Below are positions 15,201 to 54,622 of a stretch of 54,622 nucleotides of DNA, piece by piece. Below the pieces are notes generated by a model. The model did not search any database and was not told where the DNA came from. It saw nothing but the letters and a program-made list of their open reading frames with translations. The DNA is from Girardia tigrina (taxonomy: Eukaryota): assembly GCA_001938485.1 (NCBI GenBank), contig MQRK01183260.1, positions 1 to 54,622 on the forward strand. The letters are read 5' to 3'. Within the stretch, counting starts at the first letter, position 1. Each line of letters begins with the position of its first letter. The translations under genes and the position numbers were made by a program.

Positions 15201-18200
15201 GTTTCAAAAATTGTAGTTTTATTATTTTTATACATTAAAATAAATATTTCAGTAAACATATAATGGAAACAATCAACGAAGACTATATGACATCATCCTT
15301 TAGTTCTTCAATATGTGTTAATACTACTACTACTAATACAAATATTTATAACAATAATAAAGCCTTTCTTATGAAATAATCTCTATTTGTGCAAATGGGT
15401 GGTCGAATTTTGTTTGGTAATTCTCTAGAACAATGGGTTTGAAACTTTTTTGTGTCAACTGCAAAACATCTATAAAATTTTCCTGAGGAAGTTCTGGATC
15501 ACAATCATTATATAACTTTTTTAAAATAAAGATCTGTATAAATAAAAACATGATTTGTCTTAACACTACATGCCTGCTTCTTTCTCTAACCACACAAAGA
15601 GAAAACACAATAACTCACATGCATGTATTAAAAATAGTCATCCTTTCTGTTTTTTACCATCACAGATAAATGTATTAATATTAAGATTTTCTTTCAAAAA
15701 GGAGGACATTCAATTGTATTGAAACATTTGTTATTCCTACTATCATAAAAGCAAGCTAATTTCTACATGTACAATAGTAAACAAAGGAAAACACATCAAA
15801 AAGTTTTAATCTCTGGTCTTTCGGCTACCCCATTGAAAATTTTACAAGACTTTAGTTTTAGTTTGCTATTTTCCGACACAAGGAAAGTCATGCAAGCCGG
15901 GTTAAACTATTTTTTTTAGTAAATATAACAATCCCATCAGTACTTAAGTTTAAATATATTATAATTATTTCGAAAATATATTTTTTTTATTATATATTTA
16001 TTACCTGTTGGTCAGTTAACTTTCTTCGATAGTTTTGTTGCAAAGCCTGGAACACGGATAAAATTTCTTGATGGTCAAAATGATCAATGTGAATGAACTG
16101 ATCTGTAAGATGTGCTAATCTGTCGTTCAACATTTGATAGGACGGCATTGAAAAAATATCTGTCACTATAGAAATTATTAAGTGTACACCGGATGGTAAT
16201 TCTGTAGGAATCCAAGAAAATGAAATTCTTTTCTCATCGGATTCGAAACTAGTTGTTTTTTGTAGCTGATCAAGAGAGTCCAATATAATGACTAAAGGCA
16301 TCTGCTGAGTAAATCTTCGGGAGACATATTGAAGTAAGTGATTAAAAAACCATTGTAAAGAAGACAATGACTTCATTTTTCTAAATTTTACTCTCAATCC
16401 GTATGCCAGTTGGATTTGCAAACACACACTAAAAATATTATTACAGCTGAAATTATGAACTATTAAAAAGGATAAAAAGATAATAATTAGACACGACTCG
16501 ATTATGTGAGAAAATTAAAAACATAAATACGGTTAAACATCGTTAATAAGCTACTAATGATTTTAATTATTTTTTATTTTATTTAAACCAAATCTTTTAT
16601 AATTTATACATGATGTGGCATTTAAATTCGGAATAAGAATGTTGATTCATATGTTTTCACGAGCTCGATTTTCAATCATTTTCCTGTAGAATATAATTAT
16701 TAATACATAAGGTTTAATACATTTTTTTTAATACATTTCACGAACTCATAAGTTTTGCAGCATCAAATGTTCATTTTTTTAGTAATAATTGATACAGAGG
16801 GGCCTAATGGGTACGTATGGTGTAATTTTGCATTTTTAAAATTCTAATTGCTGAGAGAAGAATTTTGAATTAGGACATTGGGAGATTCAAATGTCCAGAT
16901 CTTAACCTAATTACATTTAACCTAATTAAATTTGAAATTACTTAACTTATAATTTCGCATCAAATGCCGCCTCATTTTTAGCGCCTTTTCTCATAGGAAA
17001 AAATGCGCTATTGTATTCATCATGTCCGTATATGTATATAATTGTTTATCACAGAAAAATACGGGTACCGGGTTAGTCCAAGACCCCATAAACTATATAT
17101 TTTTAGATGTCTCGTCAACAGCAATCCGTACAGTTTTTTTAAGTTTTCGGGAGATTGAAGAAATATATGGCAGAAGTGTTTATCTACGAGTGCTATGTCA
17201 ACTATTATAAGCCATTTGTTGTAAGAGTTTTCGATGTCTAGTTATTAACAAATGTATTTATGAAAAGAAAAGGAAAAATAAAAAAAATAAATCAAATCTT
17301 GTTTTTTTTGTCAAAGTTTTCTTTCAGGCTGAACATTTAAAGAAACTTTTATGTATTTTATAACATAACAATCGAATGCAGGCGCGTACGCAGAAAAATA
17401 TTTCGGGGGAGATATACTATCATGTGATACTTGTTTTCTAAGTTAAAAAAATTAAATTAAATATTAATAAAATAATAAAATTTATAATACCAACAAAATA
17501 CCCCATTTAATAACTTTTATTAGAAATATAATTACAAACATTTATACAATAAAAACAGGAGCATAAGTCTTCCCGGGTTCTTCGCCAAAGTGTATATAAA
17601 TTTGTCAGTGTCTAGGAAAGCCGTTAATTCTTGGTGAATGTTCATTATAGCTAAGCCATTCAATCTCTGATCTGATGTTGTGTTTTGTAAGTAAGTCTTG
17701 ATTCTGCAATATATAGAAAAATATCGTTAGCTGTGGCTGTTATTACTAGAATAGTTGCAAACAGTTTCAAAATATTTTAAATTGTAAGATATAAATGAAA
17801 GTTGCAAATATTCAAGCAATGGATAAAATCCATTGAAAGATATTTTGATTAATACAATGATGTCTCCACATCGTCACTTCACCAAAAAGATTTCTTTAGT
17901 GCCACTAATATCACTAGGCCATTGTTCATTACTGGCTTCTATATATATAATCTAGAATTAATAATTTCATTTTTAATAATAATTCAAACAAAGGCCATTT
18001 TTGATTATTAAATTTATTGACAATACATACGCGTTTCACCATTTCGGTGAAGTGCGAAGCCTTGTACATTGGCGAAACAAGTCATCATCTCCGTACTAGA
18101 ATTGTTGAACATACTCAATCGAGTAGAAATAGTTCAATATTGAGCCATATAAAAAATGTAAAGGTGATCTTATGGATCATAAAAAAGATTTCAAAAAAAT

Positions 18201-34300: not shown

Positions 34301-37300
34301 AATATATCATGTGCTATATAATTATAGGACAGAAATATTAACCAATCAGGGGTAGTCAATCACGTATTTATCGCGTGCTTAATTAAAGAAATAAAATGCT
34401 TTCGTTTTCTGCTGTATATAAATACCGATCACTGGTGACTCCCACGGCAGTCCACCTGTTAATTTCACAAAGTAAGAATTATTTTGATAGAAACTACATT
34501 GCAACAGAAAACTGCAGCTGGATAAAAATTGTACAATTTTGATAAACTATTTATAGGTACTATTAAGATTGAATGTGAATATATAACGTGGTTGATATTT
34601 CAATTTCTTGAGTATGAAGGCTTCAATATTGACCGAATTTTCATGTGACTTTACAGTTAATAAATTTGCAAAACCGTGTTTTTACAAAGTAAAATAACTA
34701 TAGTCTGTAAATGAAAAAAGTATTATGATTATTGTCTAAGTAAAAATTTTTGAGTGAACAAATTTTTACTACAAAAAATGGTCCAATCGACATTTTTCGG
34801 CATGTTTCGATTTCTTTGATGCATAATTTTTCAACCAAATGTTCATTTACTGCAGAATCTGTTATGCCCCATCTCATATCACACAATCTCAGATTCAAAC
34901 CATAATCATTACATGTAGATCGAAGTTCAGGCAGCACTTGTTTGACGAATGCGTTTCTCTCAACCTATAAATATATGATTAAGAAAAGACTATAAAACTC
35001 CAAAATATACTATAGATATATGTATTATTAAGAACACAAATTTTAATATTTTTATAAACATAACAAGTTTGTTTGTCCTCAAGACAATTTTTATCAAAAC
35101 TTTCGTACGATTGCATTCTAACTAATTGATTAATGACTTTAATCTTATTTGAGCAAATGGAGAATTATATAAATTGTTAAAATATTTATTCCAAAATTTT
35201 ATTGGTTAAAATTTAAATGATTATTTATTATTTAAAAAAATATTAATTTAATTTATTTATTTAAATTTGTAAATAAAATTAATTAACTTATTTAAAATTA
35301 TACAATTATTTTAAATTATAAATAAATATTACATATTTTCAGATAATAAGAATTAAAGTATTAATAAGCCATCTGGATAAGAGAGACAATGCCCAAATCA
35401 ATATAAAAAATTCAAACACAAAACACCATCAATGTGTGAAGTGCACAGGTCTCAAATATTTCACTTCACAGAAAGCTACTTTTTTCTGAAGCAAAACACA
35501 ATGCGTGGGAAGCGCTTATCTGATGACCTTGTGCGTGTCATTTACAGTGACCTTTCCATCTCTGTCCATGCTGCTCACAGTGCCCTTCATCGTCGAGTGT
35601 CTCATTCTACGCAACAGAAGAAGAAAGAACTTGGATATCCACAAGTCACAACAAGTGAAACTGACCACCACATTCGTCTAGTCATGAAGCGAGAACGATT
35701 CCGCAGTACAACCAGTTTGGCCCGTGAGTTTGGAATTGGCCGGTTGTCCATAAATCGCCGTGGAAATGAGACTGGAGTTTCCTCATGGATCGTAGTAAAA
35801 GACTACCTTACCCAACGACATAAAATAGCCAGACGGAATTGGTGTCGCTCTCATTACCACACAGACATCCGTGCGTGGTTTATCTCGGATTAAATCTCTT
35901 TTGAGCTCGCGGACTGTAGTGCACAAAGGCGTGTTTTTTTTCATCGACGGACACATGAAAAGTTTGCCCCATGTTGTGTTATACCTGTTTCACTAAAAAT
36001 TCGTCAAGAACTGATGGTCTAGTGGTGTATCGCGAGTAATGGTGACGAAACATTGTACTTCATTGATGGCAACATGACTGCTACACACTACACAACTATG
36101 TTAGAGGCATAACTTGTGCCTTTCCTTTAAGATCTTCCACTCAATCTACCGGCGTCATGGGTTTCGACAAGACAACGTATCACCACGTTCAATTCAATTA
36201 AACGATAAAGAAGTTTACTCAATCGTCTCAGTTGTAAATGCTCATTAACCCTAGTTTTGAGATGAAGATTTGTCTCTCCAATGTACGAATTTCGATATAA
36301 CTTTTCAATAGCCGATATACCATTTTAAACCGTTAATGACCGGGGATATGTATTTGTGATCACCATGCGTCTTACCGCTAGTGATTGGATGTCAGTTTTT
36401 AAGATCGTGTTTCTGTCCACCATTGGTAACCGGGTTTGCGAGATTTAATTAAAAAATTTCAAAAAATAAAAACGATTAATATAAAATATACACAAGAAAA
36501 AAGAAAATGACAATGACTTATGTATTTGGATACATAATTAGTAAAATAAATAATTAAATAATAATAATATATTTTTGAAAATTCAATCAAATTAATAATC
36601 TTAAATGTCAATAATGTTAAAATTTTCACTTTGTGTGGTTTAATAGTAATCGAAAATATTAGTCTGACAATTTCTGAATACTACAACCATTAGTGTCAAA
36701 AGAATAGAAAAATGACATTGTTGATTCTAGATGACACAAAAATATTTTTTTAACAAAAGATAATTAAATTAAATCTATTAACATAAATCTCAAATATGAA
36801 ATAATGAATTTGTAAATAATTTAAAAAACAATGAAAATTTTAAATCATTAAAAAATTTTGACGGTGATTTTTTCGAAATTTATTTTTATAATTAATTGTT
36901 ATCGTCACACTAAATTATTATTATTATCTTTTCAGCATATGTTTGAAAATGATGATTATGTTATAAAGCTTCTTTTTAAAATTTTTTTAACACAAAAGTT
37001 AAGTGTGAAGCTTGATTATTAATTTTCAGTTCAATTTTTCATTCTAATAAAGACTTCATATGTCATTGTCTCCCAATAATTTTTAAATTGATAACACATT
37101 ATTAGGAGAGAGTGATGCGTGAGATCAATTTTTAAGATCGATTTTTCTGAAAATTAATATTCAAGCTTTAGATTCAACTTTCTGTAAACCATTTTCAAAT
37201 AGAACCAAATGTACTTATGTGTATCTTATAGTACTTTTCATGCCCATATAAGAAATGGCTTCAGATTTGCTCCATCGTGTATACATGATCAAAAATACAT

Positions 37301-44390: not shown

Positions 44391-45372
44391 TATTACTTTC
44401 TTTTATTTTAGCAAATTTTGTTTTATAGCTTTAAAAAAAAGGGAATAAATTATTTTAGAAGATAAAAAAATTATTCTAGAATATAAATGAATTAAAGTAG
44501 AAGATAATTTTTTTGAATTATACCAGCAGATAAATAATTAAAACTGAAGATAAATGTTTTTGTTTTAAATTTTAAAATTAAAGTTTTAATTTAAATTTAA
44601 AAATTTAAAAAGGTTAAAATTTAAAAAACAGGCAAAATAAATTGTATTACTATTATTTGTAAATAGAATTTTAATCAAAAAGCTATGAACTTAAAACATT
44701 TCAAATTACCGGACCAAGATGATTCCAGTGAAGAAGAATTCATCGAAATCCCAAAACAACCAAAAACATCTCAGCAAGAAAATAAAAATAGTGCAAGATC
44801 CAACAATAAGCGGGGAAAAAATACAACGTACGAAAAGATAAAAACATTTAGTGATAAAGACGATGCTAAAGACTATGCTATGCAAGACAATTCATGGGTG
44901 AAATTAGATCAACCGGACTGCCAAACTAAAGGAATCAAGCAATTCTACAAATGTAAATTCAAAGATTCTTGTGGATGCTCAGGCAAAATGTTCATAATTT
45001 TTCACCGCGACAAAGAAAGTGTGTCAGTGTATCGATTAGAGACAAAAAACAATGAGCATGTGAAGCTAAACAATTGTGGAATACTGCATGAGATAAAAGA
45101 AGTGATTGAGGCCATAATTGTGGACTTTCAAAAGCCAGCTCAAATTAAAGAAAAACTGGAAAATAAATTTCCTAATAGACTGCTGCCTAATTGGATTCAA
45201 ATACGCAACTTCACCGAGACAATCGAGAAAAAAAAGGGATCCAAAGCATGCATTCATTTAGAAGAATTAGATAAATGGTGCAGTGCGAGAAGCCAAATCC
45301 CAGACAACCAATGTTTAGATCATATTTACGTAAGGCATCAATGTGGCAGTGAAGTGAACCCATCAACAGGTA

Positions 45373-47582
45373 TATTAAGAACACCAATTTGATTTTTTAT
45401 ATTTTTATTTAAACAACAATTTTGATTGTCCTCAAAACAATCTTTGTCAAAACTTTCTCTTATTCTTTTCAATCTATCTTCATCAGAAGGGCTATCTCTA
45501 ATAGCCAATATGCTATCGATATTTGACTCTTCTTTCTTCAGTTTTATTCCAAATTTATCCAGAAAATCTATACCAGCAATCATTTCCGGATCTATTTCTT
45601 TGACAACATAAAACTCTATTGTTTTCTGTACCCTTTCTATTATCACCTTTAATTNNNNNNNNNNNNNNNNNNNNNNNNNNNNNNNNNNNNNNNNNNNNNN
45701 NNNNNNNNNNNNNNNNNTAATCTGAATATTTTTCATACCTTTGATTAAATCCGCTTTAATGACATTCACTCGGGCTCCTGTATCTAAAAGACACTGAACA
45801 TTTTTATCTTTTATACGAAATTCTACACTTGGCCGTCCATTCAAAATTTTATAATTTATGTCAAACTTTGCAATTTTTAATATATCTGTTGCAATATTTC
45901 TTTTCTTTCTTTCTTTTTCAATATCCATGTTATCACATTTTTCATTATTTTCTTTATTCAAACTATCTAATTCACACATTTCTAGAAGAATATTTTCATA
46001 CATACAATCAAAAATATAATCACACACACATTCATATGCACAATCAAACATACATCTGCATTGACTTTCTAATGAAGCACACTGATCACCTCTCCCTGTG
46101 ATCGTGCATCCTCGTTTCCCTGATCATCTCTGAACTTTCTGTAACCTCTGGGATATTCTTGTCTTTTAGAATCTTCTTTTCTATTGGTTTCGTCGGTATA
46201 ACCCCGTCTTGAAGAGTTATCTCCTTCATACAATTCATCGTCTAATTCGTCCAATTCCGCTACTGAATATTTCCTATTTGTGTACGTCGGACGGTCTCTA
46301 TATCTTTGATTCGAGCATTTTTTCCTATAATTTTCCCATCGATTTCTTCCATTATCCCGTTTCCATTGCTCGCGTTCCTTAAACCTATTCGGGTTTTCAT
46401 AACATTGTGTTCTTATGTGTCCATTTTTATTGCAATGATTACATGTCACATTTGGACAATCTCTTCTAACATGTCCTTCTTCATGACATGCCCAACAAGT
46501 AATTTTCCTGACTCTAAAATTTCTTCTTGTATCTTATGGAATTTCTCTATTCCGCAGCCTTGTTCTCTTTTTATTTTCCACTGTTTTCCATTCATTTTCT
46601 CTTTTTGTATTATATGCTGCCACTGGTGCATTTCTTTTCTTTTTCTCGTGTTCGAACATTCTTGTTTGTATTTCTTCAATCTCATCGGATTTTGTAATAC
46701 CTTGAATGGCTATTTGTTTTTGTACATCATCATCATCTATTAAGTTAGCGCATGCTAAATTCGATAGTTCTTTCTTACCTAGCTTTTTCTCTACCAATTT
46801 CTCTATTAGTTCGTCTGCCTTTCTAAATATTATTGTGGGATCGCTGGAGCCAATTCTCAAATCTAACATTTCTTTCANNNNNNNNNNNNNNNNNNNNNNN
46901 NNNNNNNNNNNNNNNNNNNNNNNNNNNNNNNNNGTTTCACCGGGCGCTGTTTCATACTTGATTATTGCATCCGGTGTCATGTATGGCGTGACTAAAAGGA
47001 TTTTCCTTTCCTCAGAAAATCCCATTATCTTCGCGTACCTGTTGAAATTCTTTATAAATACTTCCGCTTTCGTCTCAGATCCGTCGAATGTTTCTGGACC
47101 TTTGATATTCGGAGTCACGTGATCGTGTGTCGCCATATTAAGAACACCAATTTGATTTTTTATATTTTTATTTAAACAACAATTTTGATTGTCCTCAAAA
47201 CAATCTTTGTCAAAACTTTCGTACGTTTGCATTCAAAGCGANNNNNNNNNNNNNNNNNNNNNNNNNNNNNNNNNNNNNNNNNNNNNNNNNNNNNNNNNNN
47301 NNNNNNNNNNNNNNNNNNNNNNNNNNNNNNNNNNNNNNTAATTAAAATGATAATTAATTATTTAAAAAATATTAATTTGATTTATTTATTAAATATTATA
47401 AAACTTAATTAACTTATTTAAAATTTTAAAATTATATGAAATTAAAAATAAATTTAAGCATTACTTATTTTTAGATAATAAGAATTAAAACATTAATCAT
47501 CCATCTGGGTAGGAGAGACACATTTCCAAATCAACATACACATTCAAACACAAAACATCAAACATTCAAAATATTCCTCACA
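45373..47582 (-). mobile_element. Gypsy LTR retrotransposon (family A), internally deleted: 5'LTR 47136-47582, PBS, gag with two CCHC knuckles, protease, partial 3'LTR
   Basis: Perfect TSD AGGTA; PBS TGGCGACACACGA; CWACHEEGHVRRDC and CNHCNKNGHIRTQC; LLDTGA; RT/RH/IN lost by a deletion joining pol to the 3'LTR near 45457. Confidence 0.93.
46075..46120 (-). promoter_or_regulatory. -1 programmed ribosomal frameshift signal (gag to pol)
   Basis: In-frame G GGA AAC heptamer (46120-46114) followed by a GATCAC/GTGATC hairpin; -1 frame open into the protease ORF. Confidence 0.8.
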
Positions 47583-52699: not shown

Positions 52700-53308
52700 A
52701 ATGCAAATTGGAAACTGTATTTATTTTCCAATGCACGCAAAGCTACATCATATGATTCATCGCTGAATCCATAACTTTCTACGATTCGTTTAACTTCGCC
52801 TACGACATATTTAAGTAGGTAAAATAATTTATTTTTCTTGTTAGTGGTCAAGTCATCGATACACGATTGTAATATCGCCTTCCAATCTGTGTAACTCGCT
52901 ATATCACTTACAAACATAGGTATCTGAAGTTTCTCAAATCCTTCTAATCCTGTATTCACTATTTCTTTTTTGTGTACGATTGTACTTGTTCCATTCTTTA
53001 TCTAGTAATTTTATTTCATAATTTTTTCTCAATAGCAACTCGATCTCCATATCAACTAGCTCCAATTATTCCAACTCATTTTCTAATTTCTCTACTTCTT
53101 TTCATTTGAGATACCGAGCTAATGTTATCATATTTTGGTATTCATTTTGTATTTCTTCATATTTCTCTCTATATTTATTATTAAGTAATTTCCACTCCTC
53201 ATTAGTGTTCACATCGTACAATTTTCTCCTCGAATTAACCAGTTGTACTCTCCAACCGTTCTTTTTATTCAATTTTTCCGCTAACTGTCTTGTATACTCT
53301 TCGTTTCC
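52700..53308 (-). mobile_element. BEL/Pao gag remnant (coiled-coil region plus DUF1759-like)
   Basis: KLQIPMFVSDIASYTDWKAILQSCID...KLFYLLKYVVGEVKRIVESYGFSDESYDVALRALENKY; stops and one frameshift. Confidence 0.85.
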
Positions 53309-53536
53309 TCCACCACAGAGACGAAACATAATGTCTAATGCAGTATGTTTTACTATCCCACTTTCTCGTATGGTCTCATTTGCCTTCCATTATCGACCAG
53401 CTATGATCAAACGTTGTTGGTCTGTTGGGATTCCTTCTCTATTTTTAATTTTTAATATAATACTTTAAATGGTACCTTCGAATGATACTTCCACAGTAAT
53501 GGTTTTCCCTGAAGAAATTTTGCAGAATATTTGGAA
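53309..53536 (-). pseudogene. Ubiquitin-like domain (76 aa) fused in frame to BEL/Pao gag
   Basis: FQIFCKISSGKTITVEVSFEGTI*SIILKIKNREGIPTDQQRLIIAGR*WKANETIRESGIVKHTALDIMFRLCGG; ungapped 35/76 identity to ubiquitin; in-frame ATGs at 53542, 53566 and 53620. Confidence 0.9.
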
Positions 53537-54016
53537 TTTCATTTTATCTTCATTTGATTTTTCCATGTTTTGATAAAGGTTTTTCATTGAAACGATTGTG
53601 ATAGAATTCTTTTGATTCATTACTTCCTAAAATTTATCGATTAATTTTCCTATTATCCAGAAACATGTTTTCTTGTTTTTTAATATTATTAAGTTCATAA
53701 TAATTATTATTATCTGCATTATCATTATTATTATTTTTACTTTTATTATTTTATTATTATTTTTGATTTTATTATTGCAAAAAGTAATTTTAACAAATAT
53801 TAAAACCGAATTTTTCATATTTTTTGTATTTTTTTTGTTAAATTTACATGGAGGAGTAATCCAAAAATTCATAAATTACTATCAATAACCCAACAGTTTT
53901 TATTTATAGTTTTAAGATCCAAAATAGAACCATCATTGCGATAACCCATAATAAATAATTTTTTGAAATACATTTAAGATCTCTTATTTTGTAGATAAAA
54001 ATCGATCAAATGGATT

Positions 54017-54525
54017 TGTTACGACTCCATATTCTACATCAAAACCCAGACCCCTTTCACCATTTCATTGTCCAGTGCGCACGAAAGTTTGTTGGAGTGT
54101 GGGGATAGTCAAACTCGACTATCCCCGGTGATTTTAAATGACCTCGTGCGCACCGGATATGGAGTGGGATAGGAGGTCCTGGAGAATTGATGCCTCCACC
54201 ACGGAGTCCCTTGTGCTCACTGAAGCCTTTGAATAACCTAAAATAAAAATAGAAAATTAATAAATTAATTAAGCTAATTAGCAAACTTGAATAATTGAAA
54301 GTCCACGGAATAGGCGACCATTGTTTACCTTCGTGGTAAACTTCCCGCCAGGCAGGATGTTGCGGATTCGACCATCAAACGGTGCAGACGAGTTATTACC
54401 ACGGTGTTTATTCCGTGACTTCCTGGCAAATAAACGTTTAACTTCGGTAGGGTATAAATACCCAAGTCGGTTCGCACATTAGCTGCCAGTTACACAATTT
54501 ATTATTGTGAGAAGTGGTTGCAACG
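54017..54525 (+). mobile_element. Possible solo LTR
   Basis: TGTTAC...GCAACG ends, GC-richer body, TATA-like GGTATAAATA; no TSD found. Confidence 0.35.
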
Positions 54526-54622
54526 TCTATATCCGAATTCATTTTTTTAAACACCAAAATTTTCTTAATATAACAATTCACATTTCTAAAACAAATTTTC
54601 CTGTTAATTTAATTTAATTATC

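What the first reader, a model, noticed from the sequence alone, without database searches (positions are those of the whole stretch)
53309..53536. The TE-borne ubiquitin has K48R (also K27I, K33R) but keeps K6, K11, K29, K63, I44, R72 and di-Gly
Seen: position 48 is CGA (Arg), two changes from a Lys codon; 27 is Ile and 33 is Arg; R42, I44, R72, G75 and G76 are kept; L8S, V70M and R74C are changed. R72 points to ubiquitin rather than NEDD8 (A72). Established: K48 is the main proteasomal chain-linkage site, and K48R ubiquitin acts as a chain terminator. Inference: the domain may have evolved so Gag avoids ubiquitin-fusion degradation, or, if released and conjugated, could cap K48 chains while permitting K63 chains. 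Some substitutions may simply be post-insertion decay.
Basis: partly seen in the sequence, partly recalled or inferred. Interest (0 to 1): 0.7.

Follow-up and report, generated by a model that had tools for sequence, protein, structure and literature searches.

The report
Worn ubiquitin tag on retrotransposon Gag
A dead copy of a jumping gene carries a ubiquitin unit fused in front of its capsid protein; the K48R change is shared by its family but is one of about forty changes in a worn-down ubiquitin, which likely serves as a cut-here tag rather than as a blocker of host protein disposal.

Summary
The residues are read correctly, but this copy has two in-frame stops that were not mentioned, so it makes no protein. 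It is a 1.06-kb fragment of a BEL/Pao LTR retrotransposon whose Gag carries a fused ubiquitin. R48 is family-wide (27 of 29 loci), so it is not post-insertion decay. I27 and R42 are peculiar to this copy: the others have K27 and C42 (28 of 29 each). K48R is one of 41 family-level changes; L8, R42, H68, V70 and R74 are also gone and about seven lysines remain. Escape from ubiquitin-fusion degradation is not supported (K29 is kept; K48R alone did not stabilise a reporter, PMC2173284), and chain capping is unlikely. The larger feature: at least seven Gag lineages in this genome carry ubiquitin directly before Gag, with swappable host-mRNA pieces upstream. The six sister lineages keep K48 (72 of 76 copies). 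Most likely the ubiquitin is a leader that host deubiquitinases cut off, as in cytopathic pestiviruses; this is untested. I found no paper on it, but this scan noted ubiquitin-Gag fusions before in another genome (e1-8073276, e1-8073826).

The parts
52714..53776 (-). Dead, truncated fragment of a BEL/Pao LTR retrotransposon (family A of this report); no LTR, no pol
   Evidence: Extent of the match to 29 other loci, 83-89% identity; no credible LTR match in the window
53600..53776 (-). Piece of the element's 5' leader, shared with other copies; this copy lacks the KIF21 piece that the younger copies carry
53540..53542 (-). ATG two codons upstream of ubiquitin position 1; possible start, not shown
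   Evidence: sequence
53309..53536 (-). Ubiquitin-like domain, 35 of 76 identical to host ubiquitin, ending RLCGG, in frame with Gag
53465..53467 (-). In-frame TAA stop at ubiquitin codon 24
53393..53395 (-). Codon 48, CGA (Arg); family-wide
53390..53392 (-). In-frame TAA stop at ubiquitin codon 49
53030..53308 (-). Gag N-terminal segment (likely helical) following the di-Gly; broken by stops and a frameshift
   Evidence: tblastn match to sister-family Gag; translation
52717..52971 (-). Start of the BEL/Pao Gag capsid region (DUF1759), cut off at 52714
   Evidence: Pfam DUF1759 E 2.9e-5, 24.6 bits, just under the 25.4 cut-off; tblastn

Best explanation
The window holds a dead fragment of a BEL/Pao retrotransposon whose Gag begins with a captured ubiquitin, which likely works as a leader that host deubiquitinases would cut after Gly-Gly to free Gag with a fixed first residue, whatever host-mRNA scraps lie upstream. 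Shown: the fusion, its presence in seven Gag lineages, changing upstream pieces, a kept tail. Inferred: cleavage. In this family the unit is old and has drifted to 43% identity. It keeps the hydrophobic core, I44, R72, L73 and the di-Gly, and has lost the surfaces for E1 charging and receptor binding (L8, R42, H68, V70, R74). K48R is most likely a tolerated conservative change from that drift, like K33R, not a device aimed at host chains.
For: Ubiquitin sits directly before Gag in families A-G, whose Gag matches to P0104 fall to 37-47% identity. In E and F the residue after Gly-Gly is Met (9 of 9 copies), in B-D and G Ser (66 of 67), in A Gly (25 of 25). L73 and G76 are in 76 of 76 non-A copies. 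B versus C ubiquitin: dS 0.76, dN 0.08. Upstream pieces differ by lineage: HSP90 and RPB10 pieces in B, a KIF21 piece in younger A copies, tandem ubiquitin in one C copy. The KIF21 piece lacks a 43-nt GT-AG intron of the likely host gene, so it came from spliced mRNA. In A all 13 core positions checked stay hydrophobic, and positions kept in B-F are kept more often than the rest (21 of 36 against 10 of 37, p 0.009). Ubiquitin diverged more than the capsid: one A copy against P0104, 28 of 76 against 49 of 59. Precedent: a host protein fragment plus an N-terminally clipped ubiquitin is a UCH processing signal in BVDV CP Rit (PMC8310069 passages).
Against: Cleavage, translation start and expression were not shown; the runs found are contigs of uncertain RNA or DNA origin. 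Loss of L8, R42, V70 and R74 may also block deubiquitinases, so family A may be uncleaved. G75 is Ser in 5 of 30 and R72 Cys in 3 of 30 loci. The tail counts leave out copies with under 67 aligned codons, which favours intact tails. Selection on the A ubiquitin alone is not significant (shared against private changes p 0.28; all four regions together p 0.0001). B's closeness to host ubiquitin is partly recent capture (91% DNA identity to one host unit). That K48 is kept in 72 of 76 sister copies shows it is normally constrained in these fusions, so its loss in A could be selected.
Confidence: 0.6

Rival explanations
1. In family A the unit is no longer cut: it has become a permanent folded N-terminal domain of Gag (a spacer or translation and folding aid, or a vestige), or the element's own protease removes it.
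For: L8S, R42C, V70M, H68D and R74C in nearly all copies; G75S in 5 of 30 loci; no significant purifying signal in the ubiquitin alone; many young copies lack RT and may have been moved by helpers.
Against: R72, L73, G75 and G76 are kept although only 31 of 73 positions are (chance 0.033, post hoc), and G75 is kept through a different codon from family B.
Confidence: 0.25
2. One reading: released K48R ubiquitin is conjugated and ends K48 chains while allowing K63 chains, dampening host degradation of element proteins.
For: R48 is fixed in the family while sister lineages keep K48 in 72 of 76 copies. The window copy, the most divergent one, has R48 together with R42, I44, R72 and di-Gly, so an early form might have been chargeable.
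Against: The expanded family has C42 (24 of 25) and has lost R74, L8 and V70. Arg42 is among the few positions sensitive in yeast without stress and is assigned to E1 activation (PMC4862753 passage). K63 is Arg in 8 of 30 loci. 41 positions changed in all.
Confidence: 0.07
3. One reading: K48R protects an uncleaved ubiquitin-Gag fusion from the ubiquitin-fusion degradation pathway.
For: If A is uncleaved it resembles such a substrate; the K48R form of UBB+1 reached higher levels, and yeast UFD2 needs K48 (PMC2173284 passages).
Against: K29, the stronger site, is kept in 25 of 25; K48R alone did not stabilise Ub(G76V)-GFP (same paper); about seven lysines remain per copy; the frame is open well upstream of the unit in many copies.
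Confidence: 0.08

Closest known systems
Ubiquitin insertions of cytopathic pestiviruses (BVDV Osloss, CP1, CP Rit; PMC8310069, passages)
   Same: Captured cellular ubiquitin inside a polyprotein, with another host fragment upstream and a clipped N-terminus, placed directly before a viral protein; there, host UCHs cut it to give an exact N-terminus.
   Different: Those are recombinants of an RNA virus; here the fusion is shared by at least seven retrotransposon lineages, precedes Gag, and has had time to diverge to 43-93% identity. Cleavage is not shown here.
BEL/Pao LTR retrotransposons, Belpaoviridae (PMC8742986, whole text; PMC3118150, passages)
   Same: LTRs, polypurine tract, DUF1759 Gag, protease, RT and Peptidase_A17 (RNase H region) in that order.
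   Different: The ICTV profile lists no ubiquitin and the word does not occur in PMC3118150. Families A and B carry two CCCH fingers after the capsid.
Burro giant Gypsy elements of planarians (PMC6431247, passages)
   Same: LTR retrotransposon polyprotein with captured host domains, including a Ubi2/SUMO-like motif.
   Different: Gypsy, over 30 kb; the motif lies deep in the polyprotein behind Gag, not as a ubiquitin with di-Gly directly before Gag.
Ubiquitin-fusion degradation substrates UBB+1 and Ub(G76V)-GFP (PMC2173284, passages)
   Same: A ubiquitin unit joined in-line to a following sequence.
   Different: They are uncleavable, N-terminal and near-wild-type on the surface; this domain keeps di-Gly and K29 and has lost much of the recognised surface.
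Earlier notes of this scan on another genome (e1-8073276, e1-8073826; AI notes)
   Same: Host-gene scraps, ubiquitin ending in Gly-Gly, then Gag, in BEL/Pao elements; the same pestivirus comparison.
   Different: They place the scraps inside the LTRs; in family A the KIF21 piece lies in the internal region, outside the 164-nt repeats. They do not mention a degenerate lineage.

Membership tests
BEL/Pao (Belpaoviridae) | Flanking LTR pair | tested here: met
   Family A copy L034 has 164-nt direct repeats, 98% alike, 5243 nt apart; L033 and L048 similar; 3 of 6 regions tested gave no such pair. The window copy has none.
BEL/Pao (Belpaoviridae) | Gag with the BEL/Pao capsid domain DUF1759 | tested here: met
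   Window E 2.9e-5, under cut-off; L033 29.7 bits, over cut-off
BEL/Pao (Belpaoviridae) | Pol order protease, RT, RNase H region (Peptidase_A17), integrase | tested here: inconclusive
   Family A copy L037: RVT_1 then Peptidase_A17, both over cut-off; protease weak; no integrase match in any A copy fetched. Sister copy L096 shows all four in order, rve under cut-off.
BEL/Pao (Belpaoviridae) | Polypurine tract before the 3' LTR | tested here: met
   Purine run directly before the 3' LTR of L034
BEL/Pao (Belpaoviridae) | Primer-binding site for tRNA-Arg or tRNA-Gly | not tested
   The site was printed but not compared with host tRNAs
BEL/Pao (Belpaoviridae) | RT groups with BEL/Pao references in a tree | not tested
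   No reference RTs were fetched
Conjugatable ubiquitin | Ubiquitin-family sequence and core | tested here: met
   Pfam 42.8 bits over 71 of 72 positions; 13 of 13 core positions hydrophobic (the list of core positions is recalled). The single-sequence fold was uninformative, pLDDT 49.
Conjugatable ubiquitin | R72 and C-terminal di-Gly | tested here: met
   R72 27 of 30, G75 25 of 30, G76 30 of 30
Conjugatable ubiquitin | E1 contacts R42 and R74 | tested here: not met
   R42 1 of 25, R74 0 of 25; role from PMC12355090
Conjugatable ubiquitin | Hydrophobic patch L8, I44, V70 | tested here: not met
   L8 0 of 25, I44 25 of 25, V70 0 of 25; patch defined in PMC2633047 passage
Conjugatable ubiquitin | Charged by E1 and released by a deubiquitinase | not testable with these tools
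   Needs biochemistry
NEDD8 | Ala at position 72 | tested here: not met
   Arg; determinant per PMC9378703 and PMC12355090 passages
UFD-resistant ubiquitin fusion | Loss of both K29 and K48 | tested here: not met
   K29 25 of 25; requirement from PMC2173284

The most novel reading that the evidence does not exclude
A whole clade of BEL/Pao elements uses captured ubiquitin as a standing, host-cut Gag leader, recaptures fresh ubiquitin from host mRNA from time to time, and repeatedly changes position 74 (to Cys, Lys or Gln) to tune cutting or charging. Family A went furthest and evolved a tag that is still cut but is uncoupled from the host ubiquitin pool, with K48R as an early, selected step.
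Probability: 0.25. Interest if true: 0.75.

Novelty: new variant of a known kind. Interest (0 to 1): 0.5.

Why it matters
K48R by itself matters little: it is one change in a degenerate domain of a dead copy. The fusion matters more. If host deubiquitinases mature Gag, a retrotransposon clade has made permanent what pestiviruses do by accident, and this would explain how the elements tolerate host-mRNA scraps in frame ahead of Gag. The seven lineages also form a natural series (93% down to 43% identity to host ubiquitin) showing which ubiquitin surfaces a fusion leader must keep, which can be tested with simple reporters.

Tried and rejected
Post-insertion decay as the source of R48: rejected, it is in 27 of 29 loci. 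Recurrent selection for R48 across lineages: only 3 of 76 sister copies have it, as scattered copies. Lysine depletion: rejected. A shared origin of R74C in A and B: dropped, because B's unit is 91% identical in DNA to one host unit and A's 50%, and 3 of 38 B copies have R74. My first reading that B's conservation is all selection (pS 0.93 against the average host unit) was softened for the same reason. Protein search with a family A frame found nothing. The search of representatives was swamped by polyubiquitins; of 150 rows I opened 4, one of which (P0104) was a ubiquitin-Gag fusion. The ESM Atlas gave only DUF1759 clusters under 0.9, and the search for longer relatives gave one Gag without ubiquitin; neither shows absence elsewhere. 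The single-sequence fold failed. The Gag tree did not resolve the position of A or group its copies (4 of 35 picked loci were left out as too short); the DNA tree is midpoint-rooted only. Sequencing runs: contigs only, RNA status guessed, so no statement on expression; in run X1 contigs cover codons 42 and 48 of L012 without a listed difference, X5 and X7 gave no cover. No late-domain motif was found in 5 Gag frames scanned, so an ESCRT role has no support. Three papers on ubiquitin mutants were not held, and I found no direct data on R74C. Literature searches for the fusion itself; none listed such an element by title or abstract start, and 'ubiquitin fused' had zero hits in the 20 papers listed of 741. 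Repbase reports and most subscription journals were not searchable; no supplements were read. The host organism was not determined.

Full report
Observation. Two TAA stops at codons 24 and 49 were not mentioned. The downstream Gag has further stops and a frameshift and ends at 52714. This copy is dead. It is 35 of 76 identical to the host's ubiquitin, taken from polyubiquitin loci of the same genome.

What the element is. A DNA search of the genome gave 57 matches from 40 scored of 188 candidates. Longer copies show 164-nt LTRs 5.2-6.1 kb apart in 3 of 6 regions tested, a polypurine tract, and the order leader, ubiquitin, Gag N-terminal segment, DUF1759, two CCCH fingers, protease. Three of 20 long stretches go on into RT, one of them into Peptidase_A17; several others go from the protease into a low-complexity frame without RT. 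No integrase was seen in family A. The element works like a BEL/Pao retrotransposon and meets the features tested; integrase, primer site and RT tree remain open.

Is K48R a family trait? Yes. In the 30 best loci R48 is in 27 of the 29 that cover it; the exceptions are a stop and a Leu, each one base from CGA. R33, S8, M70 and C74 are also family-wide. I27 is private to the window copy. R42 is found only in the window copy; the rest have Cys. The window copy is the most divergent member (86.6% mean identity against 92-96% for five others checked) and agrees with host ubiquitin at five positions where the others do not, against four the other way. It may be an early branch in which R48 came before C42, but the tree has no outgroup. 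In run X1, contigs cover codons 42 and 48 of copy L012 with no difference listed.

Is K48R special? Not by the counts. In 25 de-duplicated copies with at least 67 aligned codons, 41 of positions 2-76 differ from the host in 80% or more. Five of seven lysines are kept against 31 of 73 positions overall (p 0.14), both lost lysines became Arg, two new ones arose, and 18 of 25 copies still have seven. The changes hit L8, V70, H68, R42, R74 and the 52-59 stretch, while I44, R72, L73 and the di-Gly stay and the core stays hydrophobic. Ubiquitin diverged more than the capsid next to it.

The wider picture. A protein search gave 1761 ubiquitin candidates in this genome, of which 150 were scored. The stretches fetched fall into host polyubiquitin genes and six further Gag lineages (B-G, sorted by the residues after the di-Gly) with ubiquitin directly before Gag. 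Mean identity to host ubiquitin: B 93% (38 copies), C 89% (19), D 76% (9), E 75% (5), F 77% (4), G 60% (1), A 43% (25). K48 is kept in 72 of 76 non-A copies, R42 in 74, L73 and G76 in 76, but R74 in only 31. These counts omit copies with short alignments and two deleted C copies, which favours intact tails. In E and F a Met follows the di-Gly, as expected if ubiquitin was added in front of the old Gag start (inference). B against C gives dS 0.76 and dN 0.08. B's unit is 91% identical in DNA to one unit of a three-unit host gene, C's 83%, A's 50%, which suggests capture more than once. Upstream pieces change by lineage: HSP90 and RPB10 pieces in B, a KIF21 piece in the younger A copies but not in the window copy, L002, L003, L007, L013 or L023. 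That piece lacks an intron present in the likely host gene. Two proteins from other public data sets have the same design, P0004 (RPB10, HSP90, ubiquitin, DUF1759) and P0104 (ubiquitin, DUF1759); each stands on one contig, and P0104 has 87-92% relatives in this genome, so they probably come from the same or a related animal.

Mechanism. Shown: fusion, spread over seven lineages, kept tail, exchange of leaders. Inferred: host deubiquitinases cut after Gly-Gly and release Gag with Ser, Met or Gly first, which makes the upstream scraps harmless. The precedent is BVDV CP Rit, where a ribosomal protein fragment plus a clipped ubiquitin is cut by UCHs (PMC8310069, passages). For family A the unit is most likely a worn version of this tag; whether it is still cut is open. 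The two roles proposed for K48R fit poorly. Degradation escape: K29 is intact, and K48R alone did not stabilise Ub(G76V)-GFP, although it raised UBB+1 levels (PMC2173284, passages). Capping: R42 and R74 contact E1 (PMC12355090, passages; PMC9378703, passages), and R42 is one of five positions sensitive in unstressed yeast, R74 not among them (PMC4862753, passages). PMC9773336 (passages) gave no single-mutant data on R74. Against my reading: purifying selection on the A unit alone is not significant (p 0.28), G75 is lost in 5 of 30 loci, and the strong retention of K48 elsewhere leaves room for selected loss in A.

Known and new. The ICTV profile (whole text) and the BEL/Pao survey PMC3118150 (passages; no occurrence of 'ubiquitin') do not mention such a fusion; four searches listed none. 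Burro elements carry a Ubi2/SUMO-like motif elsewhere in a Gypsy polyprotein (PMC6431247, passages). PMC9289625 (passages) calls fixation of extra domains in LTR elements rare. This scan noted ubiquitin-Gag fusions in another genome; those are unchecked AI notes and not independent support.

Verdict. K48R is real and family-wide but most likely incidental (about 0.2 on its own). The ubiquitin-Gag clade around it is a real and apparently undescribed variant of BEL/Pao elements with a testable mechanism; overall interest 0.5.

Noticed in passing
families A-G, ubiquitin position 74: R74 is replaced in many lineages (Cys in A and most B, Lys in E and G, Gln in F) while R72, L73 and G76 stay; only 31 of 76 non-A copies keep it. 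A better candidate for tuning than position 48.
   Followed up: partly
L033:3257-4243, L080:4695-6542: Gag of families A and B has two CCCH zinc fingers after the capsid, and no CCHC knuckle was found in those frames; that BEL/Pao Gag usually has CCHC knuckles is recalled.
   Followed up: partly
L208:4216-4562 against L018 leader: The KIF21 piece in younger family A copies matches a likely host gene minus a 43-nt GT-AG intron.
   Followed up: yes
L082:360-3104, P0004: Family B frames run open through an RPB10 start, repeats and an HSP90 piece into ubiquitin and Gag. Whether these pieces lie in the LTR was not resolved.
   Followed up: partly
L096:5540-6592: A family C copy with two ubiquitin units in tandem before Gag and a full pol.
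   Followed up: no
L097:1302-1985 (also L098, L099): A three-unit polyubiquitin gene present on at least four contigs; its first unit is the closest match to family B's ubiquitin.
   Followed up: partly
L032:3370-4785, L041:4228-5316, L082: RT-less derivatives of A and B share a charged, repeat-rich frame without Pfam match in place of pol, 70-80% alike in DNA.
   Followed up: no
L020:111-1343 (= L039:2316-3548): A 411-codon open frame with a ThiF (E1-type) domain, E 1.7e-55, next to a truncated family A copy.
   Followed up: no
L040:769-3393: An 875-codon ankyrin-repeat frame near a family A copy.
   Followed up: no
L034:7728-7956: The KIF21 piece of this copy is partly inverted; contigs of three runs join across it on opposite strands.
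   Followed up: no
window 54503-54620: Start of another repeat, 98-99% identical to a piece inserted into family A copy L025/L041 and near L039.
   Followed up: no
window 45341-46123 (-): Retroviral-type aspartic protease match, E 4.5e-5: part of another LTR element.
   Followed up: no
window 15993-16514 (-): Weak NACHT domain match, E 2.3e-4, under cut-off.
   Followed up: no
window 35381-35890 (+): Faint Tc3 transposase HTH match, E 0.042.
   Followed up: no
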